Part shown: positions 9,580 through 56,775 of the stretch, in pieces
Layout: each line of letters begins with the position of its first letter
Numbering within the stretch: the first letter of the stretch is position 1
NCBI GenBank assembly: GCA_049724395.1
Contig: JAUGWO010000045.1
Location: 248,001-304,775 of the forward strand
Direction: 5' to 3'
From: Spongospora subterranea f. sp. subterranea
Lineage: Eukaryota
DNA: 56,775 bases
Notes under the pieces: model-generated
What the model saw: the letters and a program-made list of their open reading frames with translations, nothing else
Told to the model about the DNA's origin: nothing
Databases searched by the model: none
Made by a program: the position numbers and the translations under genes

Positions 9580-9810
9580 TTATCAGTTATAGCATGACCT
9601 CTCTCCAGTTGTTCATGATACTCTGTATGGGTCTCTTATCTGTCATAACATGACCTCTCTCAATTGTTCATGTTACTCTGTATCAGTCTCTTATCTGTCA
9701 TAACATGACCTCTCTCCACTGCTCATGTTACTCAGTATCAGTCTCTTATCTGTCATAACATGACCTCTCAACCCTGTTATGATACACTATATTTGTGATA
9801 ACACGACCCC
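9580..9810. repeat. Minisatellite, about 4 copies of a 55-bp unit
   Basis: Units start at 9580, 9636, 9691 and 9746. Approximate consensus TTATCTGTCATAACATGACCTCTCTCAATTGTTCATGTTACTCTGTATCAGTCTC. Confidence 0.9.
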
Positions 9811-20907: not shown

Positions 20908-21104
20908 ATATCCAACATGTTTTGAATGGGTTTACAGAAGGTAAATTCAATAAGAATGGTCCACCGTATCACTGTTTTTCTTGTTCGACTCCATTATTGT
21001 GTTGTCCTGGCCCATTCCCACTTCGATAACACAATAATGGAGTCGAACGAGAACTCCTATTGATTTGATCTCCTGTCAAACCATTATAACAACACGTTGG
21101 ATAT
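20908..21104. repeat. Nested imperfect inverted repeat (long foldback)
   Basis: Inner arms 20978-21006 and 21025-21053 match at 27/29. Outer arms of about 50 bp run ATATCCAACATGTT... and ...AACACGTTGGATAT. Confidence 0.85.
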
Positions 21105-31235: not shown

Positions 31236-31648
31236 AATCGGAGCGTTCATCGCCTTTGCGGGACTCCCTATGGCAAGGATGAAGAAGGGTATGGTGAGCG
31301 GGTATGGTCTTCAGGCATTGGGCCATTGTCAGATTGCCAGAGTTAGCAGCAATAACTTTAGACTCTTTGATGGCAGTGATGGCTCAGTCGATCCAGCTTA
31401 AATTCTCTTCGTGCTATCTCAGCCACTTTTGCTTGCGACATTTTAAGATTGGCTTGATGAATTTCCAAAACACGAGCCCGTTTAGAGGGTGACAGTTTCC
31501 CTTTATGCGACACCTTAGACGCGCGTACAGGAATAACACAAGCGAAAGCTTGCTGACACTTTTCTGATTTTGAGCACCAAACCCGCTGATCATATCCTTC
31601 TTCATCCTTGCCATAGGGAGTCCCGCAAAAGCGATGAACGCCCCGATT
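31236..31648. repeat. Long inverted repeat (arms of about 70 bp with a 34-bp perfect core) enclosing further stems
   Basis: AATCGGAGCGTTCATCGCCTTTGCGGGACTCCCTATGGCAAGGATGAAGAAGG... starts at 31236. A near-identical reverse complement ends at 31648. Confidence 0.9.
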
Positions 31649-33949: not shown

Positions 33950-36151
33950 TCAATGAAATGCTGCTGAGTCCGCTATTGGAATTTTGACTGAGCTTTTTTC
34001 AATTGTAGGCAATGACTTAATCACGTCCGTTTCTCCGCCAGATGTTATTGCGACTGTCGAATTAATCACATGCACTTTTTTTTCTTCAAATGACCCCCTA
34101 TCATTGCTTCCTTGGTGGCCATTATTACCGTCAGAACCAGCGGTTTCGTGGTTGACCGCATTGACATTGTTCACGTTGTGGATCGCAATATTGTTATTGT
34201 TCGAATTATTGGTCTCGATCATGTTGTTATTGACATTGTTGATGCCAATGTGGTTGTTGTTGATATTGCTAATGTCAATGTTATTCTGCGATGTTTGGCC
34301 TCTGCCAGCGACGTTATTGCTATCGATATTGTTGGTCACGATATTGTTACTATTAAGATTGGTAGCAATGACGTTGTTGGTAGCGATGTTGTTGCCGTTT
34401 GAGTTGCTGATAAGACTGCTGTTGTTCAAGTTGTTGATAGCGATGGTATTGCTGTTTAGAGTGTCACTGGCAATGTTGTTGCTGTTCACGTTGTTGTTTG
34501 CGATACTATTGCTGTTCACGTTGTTGGTTGCAATGTTGTTGCTGTTCACGCTGTTGGTTGCGATACTATTGCTGTTCACGTCGTTGGCTGCAATGTTGTT
34601 GCTGTTCACGTTGTTGGTTGCGATACTATTGCTGTTCACGTTGTTGGCTGCAATGTTGTTGCTGTTCACGTTGTTGGTTGCGATACTATTGCTGTTCACG
34701 TTGTTGGCTGCAATGTTGTTGCTGTTCACGTTGTTGGTTGCGATACTATTGCTGTTCACGTTGTTGGCTGCAATGTTGTTGCTGTTCACGTTGTTGGTTG
34801 CGATACTATTGCTGTTCACGTTGTTGGCTGCAATGTTGTTGCTGTTCACGTTGTTGGTTGCGATACTATTGCTGTTCACGTTGTTGGTTGCGACACTATT
34901 GCTGTTCACGGTATTGGTTGCAATGTTGTTGCTGTTCACATTGTTGGTTGCGATCTTATTGCTGTTCGCGTCGTTGGTTTCAATGTTGTTGGTAGCAATG
35001 TTGTTGTTGACGTTGTTGGTTGCAATGCTGTTGCTGTTCACGAAGTTGCTATCAATGTTGGCGTTGTAGGTAGCAATGTTACCGCTGTTCACGTTGTTGG
35101 TAGCAATGTTGTTAATGTCGATGTTATTAGCGACAGCGTTATTGTTCATATTGGCACTATTGATACCCGTTGCCGTCCGCGTCATTATATCAGCGTTTGG
35201 AGTGGCGCGAACTAAATACGCGGAATTGGTGGAATCCACCTGGATCGGCGCTGGCGTTTGCGGCATAGGAATGCGGATAAAAGTCTCGACGTCAACAGGA
35301 ATAGCTCGAGGTCTACGAACAATAGGCTGTTTTGTTGGACGCAGCCTTGGAGAATACGCTTTAACCTCAGTCCGACGGACACCACGATTGACAGCATTAG
35401 CTGCTGCGAACGAGTATGAGGCCCCGGATGCAATATTATTGGAGGCATACGTCGGTGGTTGAGCGCGTCGAGCGAATCCAGGCGCTGATATTGATATACC
35501 GCGAAGAGGAACAACCTTGACTGGCTCGCATTGTGTAGTTGGTGGTGACACAATTCTCTCGAGGGGGGCCGGGGCATCGGTGCATTCCACCTTGGTGAGA
35601 ATTGGGGTGTCGGTACATTCCTCCTTAGTGACAATGGGGGCATCAGCACAATCCTGTTTAGTCGGAATCGTGGCGTGAAGATGAAGGCGAGATGGCGCCA
35701 GTGGACGAGGCGGTTGGTTAGGGCATTCAGGGGTTATCGTCTGAACCGGATGTATTATAGGCTTTGGACCAAGAGCGGCGTATTGTGCTATTGAGATATG
35801 GTCGGTGACAAGGCGGTTCACCGGGGAAGGAGTCTTGCCCGATTCAGATTCGCAAGAGAATCCGACCAGGGATGAACCAGTGTCGCCTTTGATTCCCTCG
35901 GGACCGTATCGCCATGTAACAGGGAGTGGTCTCGGGGAGGCCGATGGCGCTACGACAATACCTGCAATACGATATGTTTGTGGAGTTTCGGGAGCCAAGC
36001 CAGGCTCGTCACTGCAATCGTCGCGATGAATAATGGTCAATGGCGGACCCTTAACAGGAATAAGGGGCGCCGCGTTATCTGGGCAGTCTTGGCACATTCC
36101 CAAAGACACGAAGAGCGCCACACATAATGTTAGGATAAATGAGATACCCAT
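33950..36151 (-). CDS. Secreted protein with Pro/Cys-rich N-terminal half and Asn-rich decapeptide tandem repeats
   Basis: 733-aa intronless ORF with a signal peptide (MGISFILTLCVALFVSLGMC) and NNVNSN(S/N)IA(T/A) repeats. Confidence 0.8.
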   Translation of the reverse strand: MGISFILTLCVALFVSLGMCQDCPDNAAPLIPVKGPPLTIIHRDDCSDEPGLAPETPQTYRIAGIVVAPSASPRPLPVTWRYGPEGIKGDTGSSLVGFSCESESGKTPSPVNRLVTDHISIAQYAALGPKPIIHPVQTITPECPNQPPRPLAPSRLHLHATIPTKQDCADAPIVTKEECTDTPILTKVECTDAPAPLERIVSPPTTQCEPVKVVPLRGISISAPGFARRAQPPTYASNNIASGASYSFAAANAVNRGVRRTEVKAYSPRLRPTKQPIVRRPRAIPVDVETFIRIPMPQTPAPIQVDSTNSAYLVRATPNADIMTRTATGINSANMNNNAVANNIDINNIATNNVNSGNIATYNANIDSNFVNSNSIATNNVNNNIATNNIETNDANSNKIATNNVNSNNIATNTVNSNSVATNNVNSNSIATNNVNSNNIAANNVNSNSIATNNVNSNNIAANNVNSNSIATNNVNSNNIAANNVNSNSIATNNVNSNNIAANNVNSNSIATNNVNSNNIAANDVNSNSIATNSVNSNNIATNNVNSNSIANNNVNSNNIASDTLNSNTIAINNLNNSSLISNSNGNNIATNNVIATNLNSNNIVTNNIDSNNVAGRGQTSQNNIDISNINNNHIGINNVNNNMIETNNSNNNNIAIHNVNNVNAVNHETAGSDGNNGHQGSNDRGSFEEKKVHVINSTVAITSGGETDVIKSLPTIEKSSVKIPIADSAAFH
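34450..35110. repeat. Coding tandem repeat, 30-bp unit with a 60-bp higher-order period
   Basis: The 60-mers starting at 34621, 34681, 34741 and 34801 are identical. Flanking units are degenerate. Confidence 0.95.
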
Positions 36152-38291: not shown

Positions 38292-38569
38292 TCAAATGGA
38301 TCGAAAGTATGCGCTTGTGGGATGAGATCATCTCAACATGCGCGAAGTGGAATTCTATACGATTCCGCACACCGATGTCGGAGCATCCTGAGCACTTACA
38401 AGAATCGACGATCATTCGTCGATTCGAATCGAAGTACGGATTACTTAGCGTTATCGTCCGACCAGATACCAACGCCGACATCGGGAGCGTGTGCGGAATC
38501 GTATAGAAATCCACTTAGCGCGTGTTGAGACCATCGCAGCCCGCACGCGCATACTTTCGATCCATTTGA
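38292..38569. repeat. Foldback element A: arms of about 81 bp with an internal 10-bp hairpin
   Basis: Arms 38292-38372 and 38489-38569 have about 9 mismatches. GAATCGACGA-TCAT-TCGTCGATTC lies at 38402-38425. Confidence 0.9.
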
Positions 38570-38669: not shown

Positions 38670-38905
38670 ATCGGTAGCCATCAGACACGAAGACAGTACT
38701 GGGAATCTTACACAATCGTGAGATTACAGAAATCGAAGGCCAACGGACATTCACCCAGAAAGAAAGATAGACTCATACATGACACCTGCCAGCGTAGGGC
38801 TGGAATACTCGAAAACTGTGATGAGTACCCGTTGGCCTTCGATTGCTGTAATCTCGCGATTATGGAAGATTCCCAGTACTGTCTTCGTATCTGATGGCTA
38901 CTGAT
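38670..38905. repeat. Foldback element B: arms of about 80 bp
   Basis: GTAGCCATCAGACACGAAGACAGTACTGGGAATCTT... pairs with ...AAGATTCCCAGTACTGTCTTCGTATCTGATGGCTAC. Confidence 0.9.
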
Positions 38906-51521: not shown

Positions 51522-53009
51522 CTAATGGATGTACGCAGTGATCTCGCCCTCGTTAGCTTGAAATTCCAGTTTTAAATACTTGAGATAAGTAATTACAGCT
51601 GGTCGAAGCTGTTAAGTCACGATTAGTAAACGGTACCTGCTATTTTTGCAGTATTTTACTTTTGGAGCAAAAGTGTCAGCGCTATGTCGTCCGATCCCCA
51701 CGATGATAGATAGACGACGGATTTGCATCGGATACGCAGCTTGTATTCTCCTAATGCAATCTCGTAAGAGTTTTCGAGCTTCCGGAACATGCATTTCATG
51801 CAAATCTAAGCTTCTCAGCTTGCTGGCAGATGGATTGTATTTCTAAGCAGATATCAATCAGAAAAATACTTGCAAAAGCTAAATTACAAGTACAATAAAT
51901 GTTGCCACCATGATACGCTCACGAAGCGGGATCATCTTTTCATTAATGTTTCGCGCTTTTTCATTAAGGGACTGAGCAAAAGAATTTTGACCATTCGAAT
52001 GTGCTTGGCGAGCAGCCCAACATGTTTGCGCTTTTTGATGGGTTAGAAATTTGTACAATCTACAATTATTTTCCATTGACACGGATTCTGATGAAGTATG
52101 ACATCCTCGATAAAGTTTGTCAAGCTCTGAAAGCGTTTCGAAAGAAAACTCACACCCGACGTCGGAAACTGTTGCAGATTCCGGAACATGTTTCTTGGGT
52201 GCAGCTACGGTATCGGGAGACGATGCTGTGAACAAGCTGCACAGAGCGTCTTTTGAAGGCTGGACCGCAAAGTCGTGTGCTTCTAGTATTTCGCGAATAA
52301 TGGCTGCACTTGCTGCTGGAAACATTCTCTAAACCGAACTGAACGGAAATCCGAAATTTATTTGCAAAAACTACCTTAAAGCCGTGCAATTTGATGTGAT
52401 TAGCCATATTCAACTTCGCAGACTGAAGGTCTTGAAGTTTTTGATGTCTTAGAGCGCAAAATGTGATCAATTACCAGCTCTACAGACCGATTGTTTTCGA
52501 CAAAAACGTCATGAAGGACGGGGTCCGGAATCAACGGGAACATCATCGACAGTTGCCTTACTTCATCCTAATCGATATGCTCCGTTAGATCAACAATCTG
52601 CTGAACCCAAAACGCATTTTCGTACACTAGCAGCGGCATCGCTGTCCATGTCCATCATCATGGACAAAGCAAGATCGAAGTCGCCATCAACACTATTGAT
52701 GATATGTTGTCGGCGTTCATAATCAACAGACGGAAACATCTCCATCAAGCTAATCTGGGTAAAATCCTGATATAACGCATCGTTCTCTTTCATCTCAGCA
52801 CTATCCAGCAGAGGTTCTGCAGTTTCACATTCGAGAAGGCGGTCAACAATGGCCGAGACATCATGGGACCCAAGTTGGCGGATGTGCTGCTCGATAACGC
52901 TGTGGTGAATGTCTGGGAACACCTGGGTCAGATGGGCGATCACCTCGCCATCGATCTGCGCATCAAGATCCGCCCCATTATCATTATGATCATCAGTCAT
53001 GGGGGTCAT
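51522..53009 (-). CDS. CUE-repeat plus Smr-domain endonuclease (Cue2/N4BP2-like), multi-exon
   Basis: CUE-like LTQVFPD, LMEMFPS, LSMMFP and MFPA. Smr motifs LDLHEMHVPEA and LSIIVGIGRHS. Confidence 0.82.
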
Positions 53010-53529
53010 GCACCACAGTGATGATCACACCGCCTCCTGTCAAGTGTCAACTAGCACTCGGGTTCGAGGCCGAGCATCACCTGACAGGGGCGTGGGGGAT
53101 ATGAGTGTAACAGTACACACCAGAACCTGCACAGTACTGCACAGTACACACCAGAACGACGCTGCAATCACTGCAGTTGTTGAACACGTTACGTTATACC
53201 TATTTCAGGTTCACGCACTTGAAGTGTACCACTGTGACTGTCGTTTTGGCGACTGTAGATGTTCCAAACACAGTGCGTGAGAGCCGTGCAGTATTTTGAT
53301 GTTTGGAATTTTAAACAATTTTTGAAATTCAAGAATTCACAATTGAGTTGCCGACAAACACACGGTCAGCTGGGTTGCTGCGGCCATAAAAATCCTTGTC
53401 CATAAAGTCACTGGCGCGCAAGTGCCCAACATTATTGTCGTCGAAACGGCTCAAGAAAGAAAGACTCAGATTTTGTATTTGACATTAAGTCTTAACGGCT
53501 TAAAGCAGCGATCCGAACAGAATGAGGGA

Positions 53530-54075
53530 TTCCATGAAACTGGTTATTTCAATTTTTGATCGTAAACGTCATTCAATGAGCGACTAATTTGGCCATCCAA
53601 TTTTGTGGATGAACGAATGTCGGTATTCGACGAATTTTCGAAGGGCCTGCGTGGCTTCGTCAACCTGCGTAATAGAATGCATTTCGAAAGACCCTAATGG
53701 GCGAAAGATCAGTATGTGGATTGACAACTGTGGCGGGCACAACGACACCGAAGAGTCGCAAGATGTCCTTGTCACAAAGAACAGTTATTCGGCGATTTGC
53801 ATCGAACGCCACGAATCTGGTCCAGCTGTGATAAGCAAAATCAAAGACGCGTGGATATGATTCACAGAGGGAGGTGGTCTGACGCGGGTGGCAAGGGCGG
53901 TGCATCTTCTGGCAAGTTGCTCACCAGGCAAGATTTTTTTCCTCCAGCTTGCGGTAATTCGCAGCGAGACGCGAATGGGTTAAAAAAGCGATGATCCGTT
54001 GCGGTTGTCGCTGGATATCAACGGTCAATGGAGCGAGCAACAGCCCTCTCGCGAACTCCAGGTTATCCTGCGTAC
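53530..54075 (+). mobile_element. Decayed pogo-like (Tc1/mariner superfamily) DDE transposase fragment
   Basis: Read through frameshifts: PNGRKISMWIDNCGGHN, RRFASNATNLVQ, VISKIKDAW, SGKLL.PGK.FFLQLA, KAMIRCG and SLDINGQW. Confidence 0.7.
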
Positions 54076-54425
54076 CTTGAAGGACGTCCAGTCGAAAGTG
54101 GGAAATTTAAATAAAGCAAGAGCACGTCACCCGTGAGACACCGTTTTTCGATCAGACGTCATCCCATTCGCCTCAAGTCTTACAACGCCCTGAATGGTGC
54201 CATCTCCTACTCTAATGTCGATGATCGCGCTGCCAGCCATCTGTAATGTTCACTGCATACTGTGCAATATAGTTTTGCAATGATTTGACTGTGCCACAGG
54301 CATTAGTGTGACCCTAGCGTGCGAGTGTCCAAACATCTCGCGCGGTAGAAAAAGCCACCGAATAATGTGGCTCACACTATTTCCTATGAGGTGTCGAAAT
54401 TGAGAAGGTTGACAATTAGTGTGAC

Positions 54426-55652
54426 TCACACTAAACACGGTTGACGGTGTACCAAATTATCCTGCACTGAAGCATTGGAAACCAATTCAGCGTCCGGCGC
54501 CTCCTGTAAATGCCTCTGGATAAAATACGGCCAATCCTTGACATATTCCTTGATTATCCTCTCGGTTTTGCGCCAAGGCATAGCTTCGAGAGCGTGAACA
54601 CGACACGCACAGTCTGCAGGAGAATAACATTTGAATAGATTGATCTCCTGAAAACGTCGCCTAAGTGACAACAAAAACTGATCACCATTGCGATGATCGT
54701 TGAAGCATTCGTGCATAGTGAAGTTCGAAGAGACGATGACATGTAAAGGACGAATCTTGCGATAACCGCCCTTGAATTGAACCAACACGGGACGCGCGTC
54801 CGCAACATTCTCCACCATCGAAATCAACGCAATGATGTTGGCTGGCTGCCATTCAGAAAAAACAACAACCTTTTCGTCGGCATATCCGTCCCACCATTTC
54901 GTACAATCTTTTTCAAAAACGTTTTCGCTCCCGAAAAACCGAAACCAGGTCTCGGATTTGCCCACACCGGTCGGGCCCCCAATCCATATATTACGCAGCG
55001 CATCCAAACTGTTAAGCTGACGGAGACAAGCTCCGCGCTTCTCAATAGAATTGATAGCACTCTGGTACCGAACATAAAAAGAGGCATCAATCTCCTCTGC
55101 ACGACCCTGAAATGCCATCGCACGATAATTCTTCCAACGCTCCCGCTCCATTCCACCCTTCTGTTTGGAAGAAACAGGGGGGACACCGAACTCCTCGAAA
55201 TCCTTCCCTTTCGAACAATATATAAAACTCTGAGCCGCATCGCCTTTCGCGGGCGCCACCGTGAGAAGATACGGCCAGAAATCACCAATCAAACCCTGCT
55301 TGGTTTTCTGATTTTTGAAATACATATATGCTTGTAAATGAGGCCGCTCCGTCCGAGAACCGACTTCACGTCTAAATATGTAATACGACGCCGACGATTG
55401 ACGAAACTTGACTTCCGCACCATCAAACGTCGTCTCAGTGCCCAAGTGAACGGTCAAAACCCATCCTCTCGACTTCACATTGCCATCAGCAGCGCGAGGA
55501 GGACCCCCAGGTTGCCTCCGCCCACAATTACCCCTTCGAAGGTTAGCTGGAGACTCCACTGACAACGCACGGTCCACAAGAACCTGTTCTTGTCCTGTTT
55601 GAACCATTAGGATCTCACGCACATTTTGGGATCTCAGCAAGCATGACTGCAT
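54426..55652 (-). CDS. rep: CRESS-DNA virus-type replication initiator Rep (HUH endonuclease plus SF3 helicase), endogenous viral element
   Basis: Motif I WVLTVH, motif II PHLQAY, motif III YCSK, Walker A GPTGVGKS, WWDGY with Walker B VVFSEW, KGG..IRP, motif C IVSSN and Arg finger LRRRF. Intact and intronless. The second ATG at 55607 is an alternative start. Confidence 0.96.
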   Translation of the reverse strand: MQSCLLRSQNVREILMVQTGQEQVLVDRALSVESPANLRRGNCGRRQPGGPPRAADGNVKSRGWVLTVHLGTETTFDGAEVKFRQSSASYYIFRREVGSRTERPHLQAYMYFKNQKTKQGLIGDFWPYLLTVAPAKGDAAQSFIYCSKGKDFEEFGVPPVSSKQKGGMERERWKNYRAMAFQGRAEEIDASFYVRYQSAINSIEKRGACLRQLNSLDALRNIWIGGPTGVGKSETWFRFFGSENVFEKDCTKWWDGYADEKVVVFSEWQPANIIALISMVENVADARPVLVQFKGGYRKIRPLHVIVSSNFTMHECFNDHRNGDQFLLSLRRRFQEINLFKCYSPADCACRVHALEAMPWRKTERIIKEYVKDWPYFIQRHLQEAPDAELVSNASVQDNLVHRQPCLV

Positions 55653-55761
55653 GAGATCCAGTGCACAATTACATGTAAATACACTTATTGTATTAAGCGC
55701 TTCAAAACTTTAAACGCGCTTTTAAAGTTTTAAAGCGCTTTACGCGCATTTTAGGATCTCA
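55610..55761. promoter_or_regulatory. Putative CRESS origin/intergenic region with hairpin and iteron-like repeats
   Basis: GGATCTCA at 55610, 55629 and 55754, and inverted at 55652. A 20-bp stem 55695-55714/55721-55740 matches at 19/20. No canonical nonanucleotide in the loop. Confidence 0.6.
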
Positions 55762-55789
55762 TTCTCATTAGGTCTAGCCGCATATACCG

Positions 55790-56125
55790 AGATTGCAACA
55801 ACGAGACTGATTTTATTCGGTCAAACGTCTCAGATATTGGAAAAGATGGGGCAAGACTCGAGGAGTTTTTCGATCATTCCGAAAGAATATGGATCAAGAA
55901 GTATTCCCCGAACGATTGGATCATCTCGCGTCAGATTGGTAAATAGGAGGTTTTCAATAAAACGAACAATCCGTTGGAACGGTACAATTCTTTTTTCGAA
56001 TTCCCCTTTTCCGAGTGCTCATCCTAGGTTGGCTCATTTCGTGGGGACCTTGCGGCAACAGTCGAACAATCAGCTGCAGAAAATTGCAGGACTGTCGTTC
56101 TGGTAGGAATAAAGCGCCTCCCCGT
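55790..56125 (+). mobile_element. Decayed Mutator-like (MULE) transposase C-terminal fragment
   Basis: FFDHSERIWIKKYSPNDW, stop, NKTNNPLERYN, then after a frameshift FPSAHPRLAHFVGTL and GRNKAP. This matches the TNN.LE..N motif of MULE transposases. Confidence 0.7.
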
Positions 56126-56775
56126 AGACCGACGTTTACTCCAACATCATCGTTGATTTCGCATTCGTACAAGTCATTTTTATTGAACCGATGTGTTTCA
56201 CAAGAACCTGTTCAAATCGCATCCAATCTTGATATCAGTAGGGTGTTCCAACTAAAATCACCCTCGTATACTGAAAGTGCTGGCAATATAGCATCTGACG
56301 ATAGATATGGTGTTCCAGAAATGGCACGGTTATCGTCCATCACAAACGCTACGACGTGTGGATTGCACCTTGCTACAGCTTTGACCTCCTATGGCGAACC
56401 TTCCCCTAAAGGCACGTGATCAATATAGCTGCTTTCATTAATCCAAGTAATTTCGTAGGTGAACATGGTTGTCGGACGTTGCGTACAACACCTCCTGAGG
56501 GTCAGAAATATAATGTTCTTACCAAAGAATCATTTTCGACAAGTATGAATGATGATTGCTCAAGCGGTTCAAAATCAAGTTTTGGCGTCGACACTGGCGG
56601 GACAATGGGTTCAAATATTCAAGGTATCAAAGCCGAGTTTGTTTTTGTCTAGTGATTCTGTGCGCTTCAGAGAAGGATTGTGGTGTCTTCTCCATCCCCA
56701 ACCCTGTTTCGAATCATACGGATACAAGTACCGGGTATAGGTACAGATGGTTATTATGGCATATATTAGCTGAAA

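What the first reader, a model, noticed from the sequence alone, without database searches (positions are those of the whole stretch)
55610..55761. Origin-like cassette upstream of Rep: iterons, direct repeats and a 20-bp hairpin
Seen: four GGATCTCA octamers (one inverted) lie within 152 bp. Direct repeats at 55617-55636 and 55742-55761 (18/20 identical) bracket the hairpin AAGCGCTTCAAAACTTTAAA-CGCGCT-TTTAAAGTTTTAAAGCGCTT. A TTACATGTAA palindrome and TTGTATTAA (7/9 match to TAGTATTAC) sit just beside the stem. Known: CRESS origins combine a stem-loop nonanucleotide with Rep-binding iterons near the rep start. Inference: the cis-acting origin integrated together with Rep, but it is non-canonical or partly decayed because the nonamer-like sequence is outside the main loop.
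Basis: partly seen in the sequence, partly recalled or inferred. Interest (0 to 1): 0.7.

Follow-up and report, generated by a model that had tools for sequence, protein, structure and literature searches.

The report
Captured viral Rep control region, protist
The repeats and hairpin are real and lie just before an intact, transcribed gene from a small DNA virus lodged in what is likely a potato-parasite protist's genome; they are likely the virus's own promoter and protein-binding sites, but lack the cut site that a working replication origin would need.

Summary
Observation confirmed. The four GGATCTCA copies, the 18/20 direct repeat and the 20-bp hairpin beat shuffles. The nonamer-like 9-mer and the palindrome are chance-level (903 and 385 of 2000 shuffles). 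The cassette starts 3 nt from the ATG of an intact 393-aa CRESS-virus Rep. Rep and cassette are single-copy chromosomal DNA in 2 of 2 DNA runs. The host is likely Spongospora subterranea. The cassette is not a MULE end: it abuts the middle of a MULE transposase. RNA contigs cover Rep and cross the left junction. In two studies they stop at the ATG (55608, 55604; weak hint), and a spliced intron points to Rep-sense. No nonamer lies in any loop, whereas 64 of 97 free CRESS loci have one. Best reading (0.6): a captured, right-truncated viral intergenic piece, now likely acting as the Rep promoter, with probable iterons and an accessory hairpin and no nick site. Decay is not supported. It parallels the yam and tobacco endogenous geminiviruses, but links an unclassified Rep clade to a plasmodiophorid.

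The parts
54426..55607 (-). Intact CRESS-virus Rep ORF, 393 aa: HUH endonuclease (motifs I, II, III) plus SF3 helicase; Walker B reads SE instead of two acidic residues, a clade trait
55608..55761. Captured non-coding segment upstream of Rep (the cassette); single-copy; no RNA contig covers 55609-55807 in 3 of 3 RNA-type runs laid; likely Rep promoter and partial origin
55610..55617 (+). Octamer GGATCTCA copy 1, 3 nt from the Rep ATG (likely iteron)
55629..55636 (+). Octamer copy 2; end of direct-repeat copy A (55617-55636)
55652..55659 (-). Octamer copy 3, inverted; with copy 2 it forms a stem-loop 55629-55659 (about -7.7 kcal/mol) whose loop 9-mer matches 5 of 7 fixed nonamer letters, a chance-level match
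55669..55696 (.).
55695..55740 (.). 20-bp hairpin with a 6-nt loop and no nonamer; fully paired on the Rep-sense strand with one G.T
55742..55761 (+). Direct-repeat copy B ending in octamer copy 4 (55754-55761); its last 4 nt are shared with the start of MULE-like codons (likely junction microhomology)
55758..56725 (+). Decayed, 5'-truncated MULE transposase fragment and following repeat DNA, about 4 other copies by depth; homology clear from 55778, probable from 55758 across an 8-nt insertion
54259..54433 (.). Host repeat, high-copy over about 54259-54353, with four TAGTGTGA motifs; the Rep stop codon lies inside the last motif pair, so the left virus-host junction is near 54435-54445
54011..54075 (-). 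65-nt GT..AG intron, spliced in part of the RNA downstream of Rep; points to a Rep-sense transcript that reads through the junction
   Evidence: tables 5, 5c, 8
53390..54250 (+). Decayed repeat with pogo/DDE-like peptide fragments (label recalled; no Pfam match), crossed by the high-depth RNA contigs down to about 53678

Best explanation
The cassette is likely the piece of a CRESS virus's intergenic region that integrated with the intact Rep gene beside it, and it likely acts now as that gene's promoter, with probable Rep-binding repeats but no recognisable nick site. Shown: Rep and cassette are one single-copy stretch of chromosomal DNA between host repeats; Rep is intact and is covered by RNA contigs that cross the left junction; no loop holds a canonical nonamer; the right end abuts the middle of a MULE transposase. 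Inferred: a viral DNA fragment was captured by end-joining in a transposon-rich spot, with 4 nt of microhomology at the right end. The nonamer stem-loop lay further out and was lost. Host RNA polymerase starts close to the Rep ATG, where the tandem octamers would let Rep repress its own gene, as geminivirus Reps do (recalled). The 20-bp hairpin is an accessory intergenic structure like those in some free CRESS genomes. Without a nick site the locus would not replicate or excise.
For: Single copy and chromosomal: X1 has one contig over 54334-55872 with 0 differences at depth 30.1, against 28.3 for the host genes; X2 covers 54320-55872 with 0 differences at 70.9, against 64.4. The Rep start is conserved with environmental homologues. 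Other MULE copies align only from 55808, their 174-242 upstream letters do not lay on the cassette at 80%, and the junction is at about residue 315 of a 391-aa transposase. RNA: an X3 contig spans 54076-55510 with 0 differences and crosses the left junction, and host introns are spliced in the same run. The X6 contig ends at 55608 and the X7 contig (another study) at 55604, with no cover of 55609-55807 where DNA run X1 goes on. A minus-strand GT..AG intron at 54011-54075 gives the strand. Controls: 64 of 97 free CRESS loci have a NANTATTAC stem-loop and 7 of 97 have a hairpin of 15 bp or more without it. In 16 of 33 loci with an upstream nonamer it lies more than 170 nt from the Rep ATG, beyond the length captured here. 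An 8-mer occurs 3 times upstream of Rep in 10 of 61 viral loci, against 8 of 333 host tiles.
Against: No genome of a close relative could be fetched (searches gave none above 36% identity; searches gave no match), so the viral origin of the cassette rests on position and exclusion, not on homology. The RNA evidence is from contigs, which cannot show a start or a level. The intron joint has only 21 letters on its short side and was seen in 1 of 4 runs. X3 stops earlier (55510, at an adapter), and Rep cover is low and patchy in X7 and X8. A 5' end 1-4 nt from the ATG would be an unusually short leader. No TATA or AATAAA match lies in the cassette. 0 of 61 control loci have a 4-copy octamer, and 17 of 33 have their nonamer within 170 nt of the ATG.
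Confidence: 0.6

Rival explanations
1. The cassette is a complete but non-canonical origin: this Rep clade nicks a sequence other than NANTATTAC, for example in the loop closed by octamers 2 and 3 or at the tip of the 20-bp hairpin.
For: Octamers lie on both sides of the big stem and include an inverted copy, as described for nanovirid iterons (PMC10653810, passages). The stem is fully paired on the Rep-sense strand. The clade is long-branched, with its own Walker B. The loop 9-mer at 55639-55647 ends flush with the 3' arm. 33 of 97 control loci lack a detectable nonamer stem-loop (many are partial contigs).
Against: That 9-mer matches 5 of 7 fixed letters, as do 23 of 264 random host stems. 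A 6-nt loop cannot hold a nonamer. There is no sign of amplification or circles: depth equals single copy in X1 and X2, and the DNA runs show no joints, although Rep appears to be transcribed.
Confidence: 0.17
2. The cassette is host- or junction-derived (a relic of a small transposon, or repeats made by repair synthesis) and only happens to drive Rep.
For: The locus is a patchwork of decayed repeats. Octamer 4 overlaps MULE-like codons and is followed by an 8-nt insertion that resembles sequence at the Rep start. No viral homologue of the cassette was found. The whole host genome could not be searched.
Against: It is single-copy in 2 of 2 DNA runs and is absent from other MULE copies. It has no second copy in the window. 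The first octamer starts 3 nt from a conserved viral ATG, leaving no room for a viral leader. It is nearly free of mismatches while the flanking repeats are full of indels.
Confidence: 0.12
3. Rep and its control region are domesticated and kept by selection for a host function (for example interference with related viruses), the repeats serving as regulatory sites.
For: The ORF is open over 1182 nt with all catalytic motifs, next to a MULE copy that differs from its sister copies by 45 substitutions and 15 gap letters in about 560 nt. RNA depth differs strongly between studies. A diverged Rep fragment is present at depth 3.4 in DNA run X1. Yam endogenous Reps show purifying selection (PMC5014472, passages).
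Against: A recent insertion explains the intact state equally well. There are 0 differences among runs, so no dN/dS is possible. No orthologue in another species was found among the named hits. The Cys-rich tail of 4 of 5 close homologues is missing.
Confidence: 0.08
4. Assembly chimera with a free virus.
For: Both ends lie in repeats, and no listed contig spans the whole stretch.
Against: Single contigs cross both virus-host junctions with 0 differences at host depth in 2 of 2 DNA runs, and an RNA contig crosses the left junction.
Confidence: 0.03

Closest known systems
Yam endogenous geminivirus-like elements EGV1/EGV2 and Nicotiana GRD elements (PMC5014472; abstract part and passages seen)
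   Same: Integrated rep plus intergenic DNA; rep often intact and transcribed in yam.
   Different: Those are multicopy or tandem in plants and keep an origin-like sequence (a TAATATTAC stem-loop in EGV1). This is single-copy, in a rhizarian protist, from an unclassified Rep clade, and has no nonamer.
Geminivirus and nanovirus origins (PMC10653810; passages seen)
   Same: Short repeats next to the Rep start, tandem and inverted, on both sides of a stem-loop.
   Different: The defining loop nonamer is absent; the stem is 20 bp and AT-rich with a 6-nt loop rather than about 11 bp with an 11-nt loop (ideal values in PMC7468197, passages).
Protist cressdnavirus EVEs of Blastocystis, Entamoeba, Giardia, Histomonas (PMC9615429 passages; PMC7493932 search listing only)
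   Same: A Rep EVE used to link a virus lineage to a protist host.
   Different: Different host supergroup. PMC9615429's main text has 0 mentions of Spongospora, Plasmodiophora, Rhizaria or Cercozoa; its supplements were not read.
Cruciviruses (PMC7468197 passages) and locus L001
   Different: No capsid is captured here, and L001's Rep is only about 29% identical, so crucivirus membership cannot be claimed.

Membership tests
CRESS-virus Rep (Cressdnaviricota) | HUH endonuclease with motifs I, II, III and catalytic Tyr | tested here: met
   T52, H90-x-Q92 and Y130-x-x-K133 invariant in alignments; Viral_Rep E=0.0078, below the curated cut-off, for the window protein but above it for P0004 and P0005; the alignment profile hits solved Rep structures, best E=6e-50.
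CRESS-virus Rep (Cressdnaviricota) | Fused SF3 helicase with Walker A, Walker B, motif C, Arg finger | tested here: met
   PF00910 above cut-off; Walker A, motif C and R318 present. Walker B has one acidic residue in 6 of 6 clade members, against two in 71 of 71 other Reps in the tree. ATPase activity not tested.
CRESS origin of replication | Conserved nonanucleotide in the loop of a stem-loop | tested here: not met
   No NANTANTAN, NAKWRTTAC or TRAKATTRC match; one degenerate TAWWDHWAN match lies in a stem arm. Best loop match is 5 of 7, seen in 23 of 264 host stems.
CRESS origin of replication | Iterated short repeats near the Rep start and stem-loop | tested here: met
   Four GGATCTCA at 3, 22, 45 and 147 nt from the ATG; 14 of 5000 shuffles.
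CRESS origin of replication | Rep binds the repeats and nicks the strand | not testable with these tools
   Needs EMSA and cleavage assays.
CRESS origin of replication | Conservation of the region in cognate free genomes | tested here: inconclusive
   No DNA of close relatives obtained.
Endogenous viral element | Viral sequence joined to host DNA at host copy number | tested here: met
   Contigs across both junctions at single-copy depth in 2 of 2 DNA runs.
MULE terminal or subterminal repeat | Present at the ends of other copies of the family | tested here: not met
   Other copies do not lay on 55608-55777; the junction is inside the transposase coding region.
Crucivirus | Tombusvirus-like capsid gene with a CRESS Rep | not testable with these tools
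   No capsid recognised in the flanks; contigs of the close homologues not retrievable.

The most novel reading that the evidence does not exclude
An undescribed Rep clade of plasmodiophorid-infecting ssDNA viruses, with a one-acid Walker B and a Cys-rich extension, replicates from an origin without the canonical nonamer. This cassette would be a complete copy of it, sitting in the parasite's chromosome beside an expressed, catalytically intact Rep.
Probability: 0.15. Interest if true: 0.78.

Novelty: new member of a known kind. Interest (0 to 1): 0.46.

Why it matters
It ties an unclassified CRESS Rep clade (6 sequences, 45-84% identical, otherwise known only from environmental contigs) to a likely plasmodiophorid host, a group for which my six paper searches listed no ssDNA virus. 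It also preserves a Rep together with candidate binding sites, so specificity can be tested with one protein and short oligos. If the promoter reading holds, a viral control region is still driving an intact nuclease-helicase inside a crop-parasite genome. If the origin reading holds, it would be a nonamer-less CRESS origin. As an origin fossil alone it is incomplete and ordinary.

Tried and rejected
No whole genome is held, so other Rep copies, other cassette copies and empty sites could not be searched. Exact patterns of the direct repeat and the hairpin arm gave 0 matches in viral contigs. Rfam gave 0 matches at E up to 1 over 53000-56775. Pfam found nothing in 9 flank frames read through stops, so the pogo label on the left flank is recalled. 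No remainder of the homologues' Cys-rich tail was found left of the junction; P0025 also lacks that tail, so truncation of Rep is probable, not shown. X16 (rhizosphere metatranscriptome, share 0.05) laid only on the MULE part, so it says nothing on Rep. Contig depths were not used to rank expression. Earlier-findings look-ups returned nothing. The structure model (pLDDT 76.7) and fold search only confirmed a CRESS Rep.

Full report
Observation. The clustering of four GGATCTCA copies (14 of 5000 shuffles), the 18/20 direct repeat (0 of 300) and the 20-bp stem (best shuffled stem 12 bp in 500) are beyond chance, while the 7/9 nonamer match (903 of 2000) and the 10-bp palindrome (385 of 2000) are not. 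The window-wide count of four octamers is unremarkable (30 of 100 shuffles); only their clustering counts.

The gene beside it. A 393-aa ORF runs from 55607 to 54426 on the minus strand. It has an HUH endonuclease and an SF3 helicase. Its start aligns with the first residues of P0002 and P0003, so octamer 1 lies 3 nt from the true ATG. Five environmental proteins are 48-55% identical to it; three lie on contigs of 4.1-4.3 kb, the others on 1.7 and 1.9 kb. With it they form a long-branched clade (support 0.997 in a FastTree of 77 Reps; proteins outside 230-500 aa and representatives beyond P0085 were left out). All 6 have one acidic residue in Walker B, against two in the other 71, so this is a clade trait, not decay. 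The stop codon lies within a host repeat motif. Four of the five relatives carry a longer Cys-rich tail, one does not, so truncation is probable but not shown.

Host and integration. The flanking genes are eukaryotic with 46-68 nt introns. The fragment right of the cassette matches a Spongospora subterranea MULE transposase at 71% over 58 residues. The host is therefore likely this plasmodiophorid; this is inference. In 2 of 2 DNA runs one contig covers Rep and cassette with 0 differences at the depth of the host genes (30.1 against 28.3; 70.9 against 64.4), flanked by a high-copy repeat on the left and a roughly four-copy repeat on the right. There is no sign of amplification or circles in those runs.

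Is it a transposon end? No, for the neighbouring family. Other MULE copies align only from 55808. Their nearest 30 loose letters still resemble 55778-55807, and their 174-242 upstream letters do not lay on the cassette at 80%. The site is at about residue 315 of a 391-aa transposase whose earlier part is absent from the window. Codons for L-T-L-I match at 55758-55769 with one mismatch (background 16 hits in 56.8 kb), followed by an 8-nt insertion and then P-H. The viral piece thus ends between 55757 and 55777, and probably shares 4 nt with the MULE inside octamer 4. Other transposon families could not be excluded genome-wide.

Transcription. Run X3 is RNA, since host introns are spliced in it. 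It holds a contig over 54076-55510 with 0 differences that crosses the left virus-host junction, so the RNA comes from the integrated copy. A joint 54004 to 54076 with seven letters between resolves to a 65-nt GT..AG intron on the minus strand, 54011-54075, and the Rep contig ends exactly at its border. This points to a Rep-sense transcript with a long 3' tail. The joint has 21 letters on its short side and appears in 1 of 4 runs, so the link is inferred. In one search the X6 contig ends at 55608 and the X7 contig, from another study, at 55604. None of the 3 RNA-type runs covers 55609-55807, where the DNA run goes on. This argues against DNA carry-over and is a weak hint that transcription starts at the cassette's edge. 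Against it: X3 stops at 55510 at an adapter, cover in X7 and X8 is low and partial, contigs cannot show starts or levels, and no TATA match lies in the cassette.

Origin test. No loop holds a nonamer. Of four published motif classes (PMC7468197, passages) only one degenerate match occurs, in a stem arm. The best loop candidate matches 5 of 7 fixed letters, as do 23 of 264 host stems. As a control I scanned all 97 fetched loci, 94 with a Rep hit, all distant relatives and many partial. 64 of 97 have a NANTATTAC stem-loop. 7 of 97 have a hairpin of 15 bp or more without it; in one of these (L076) the only such hairpin carries a one-letter nonamer variant. In L001 such a hairpin lies about 60 nt from the nonamer. 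Of 33 loci with a nonamer upstream of Rep, 17 have it within 170 nt of the ATG and 16 further away. So a captured 150-170 nt piece lacking the nick site is unsurprising, and long small-loop hairpins are an uncommon but real accessory of CRESS intergenic regions. Three-copy octamers occur upstream of Rep in 10 of 61 viral loci and in 8 of 333 host tiles; no viral locus has four.

Mechanism. Shown: structure, single copy, junction positions, intact Rep, RNA cover, no canonical nonamer. Inferred: capture by end-joining with microhomology; loss of the nick site beyond the right junction; promoter activity of the cassette; iteron function of the octamers. The last rests on their layout, which resembles that described for geminivirus and nanovirus iterons (PMC10653810, passages; PMC9872696, whole text). 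Autorepression by Rep is recalled from geminiviruses. I give this 0.6, a complete non-canonical origin 0.17, a host or junction origin of the cassette 0.12, domestication 0.08 and artefact 0.03. 'Partly decayed' is not supported: the ORF is open over 1182 nt and the stem is 19/20, beside a MULE copy with 45 substitutions and 15 gap letters in about 560 nt against its sisters. Either the insertion is young or it is maintained.

Known systems and novelty. It works like the yam EGV and tobacco GRD elements, which are integrated rep plus intergenic DNA, transcribed in yam (PMC5014472, passages), and like other protist Rep EVEs (PMC9615429, passages). It is an endogenous CRESS element by test, and is not a canonical CRESS origin by test. 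Six searches listed no paper that links Spongospora or Plasmodiophora to a CRESS virus. The library lacks most subscription papers. The genome-wide surveys of Liu 2011 and Zhao 2021, seen only as citations, and all supplements were not read and may list this element. Verdict: new member of a known kind, interest 0.46.

Noticed in passing
run X1, contig laid on window 55300-55349: A 210-nt contig at depth 3.4 (host 30) encodes a diverged Rep of the same type (8 differences in 50 nt, then unlike): a second related Rep in the sample, possibly a free virus or a minor strain.
   Followed up: no
window 54002 and 52426: All four runs show one extra G behind 54002 and one base fewer at 52426: probably errors of this assembly.
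   Followed up: partly
Rep clade P0001-P0005, P0025: Walker B with a single acidic residue in 6 of 6 members, and a conserved Cys motif after the helicase that P0031 (5.4-kb contig) shares in part.
   Followed up: partly
L001 2788-2822, L027 237-291, L031 143 and 2177, L039 962, L058 2423, L080 5343: Long small-loop hairpins without a nonamer in free CRESS loci, several just outside the Rep gene. L001 encodes two similar capsid-like ORFs.
   Followed up: partly
window 38292-38569, 38670-38905, 31236-31308 with 31576-31648, 20978-21053: Large inverted repeats, possibly MITE-like elements.
   Followed up: no
window 33953-36151 (-): A 733-codon ORF with a signal-peptide-like start and a long tandem repeat (about 34168-35154); exact sequence not in the protein collection.
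   Followed up: partly
window 51600-53213 (-): Host gene with a CUE domain and an Smr-like C-terminal stretch (label recalled), with four spliced introns in RNA runs.
   Followed up: no
window 55808-56400: Other copies of the MULE family are covered by RNA-type contigs in X3, X6, X7 and X8.
   Followed up: no
window 9580-9769: A tandem duplication of about 80 nt with repeated TAACATGA motifs.
   Followed up: no
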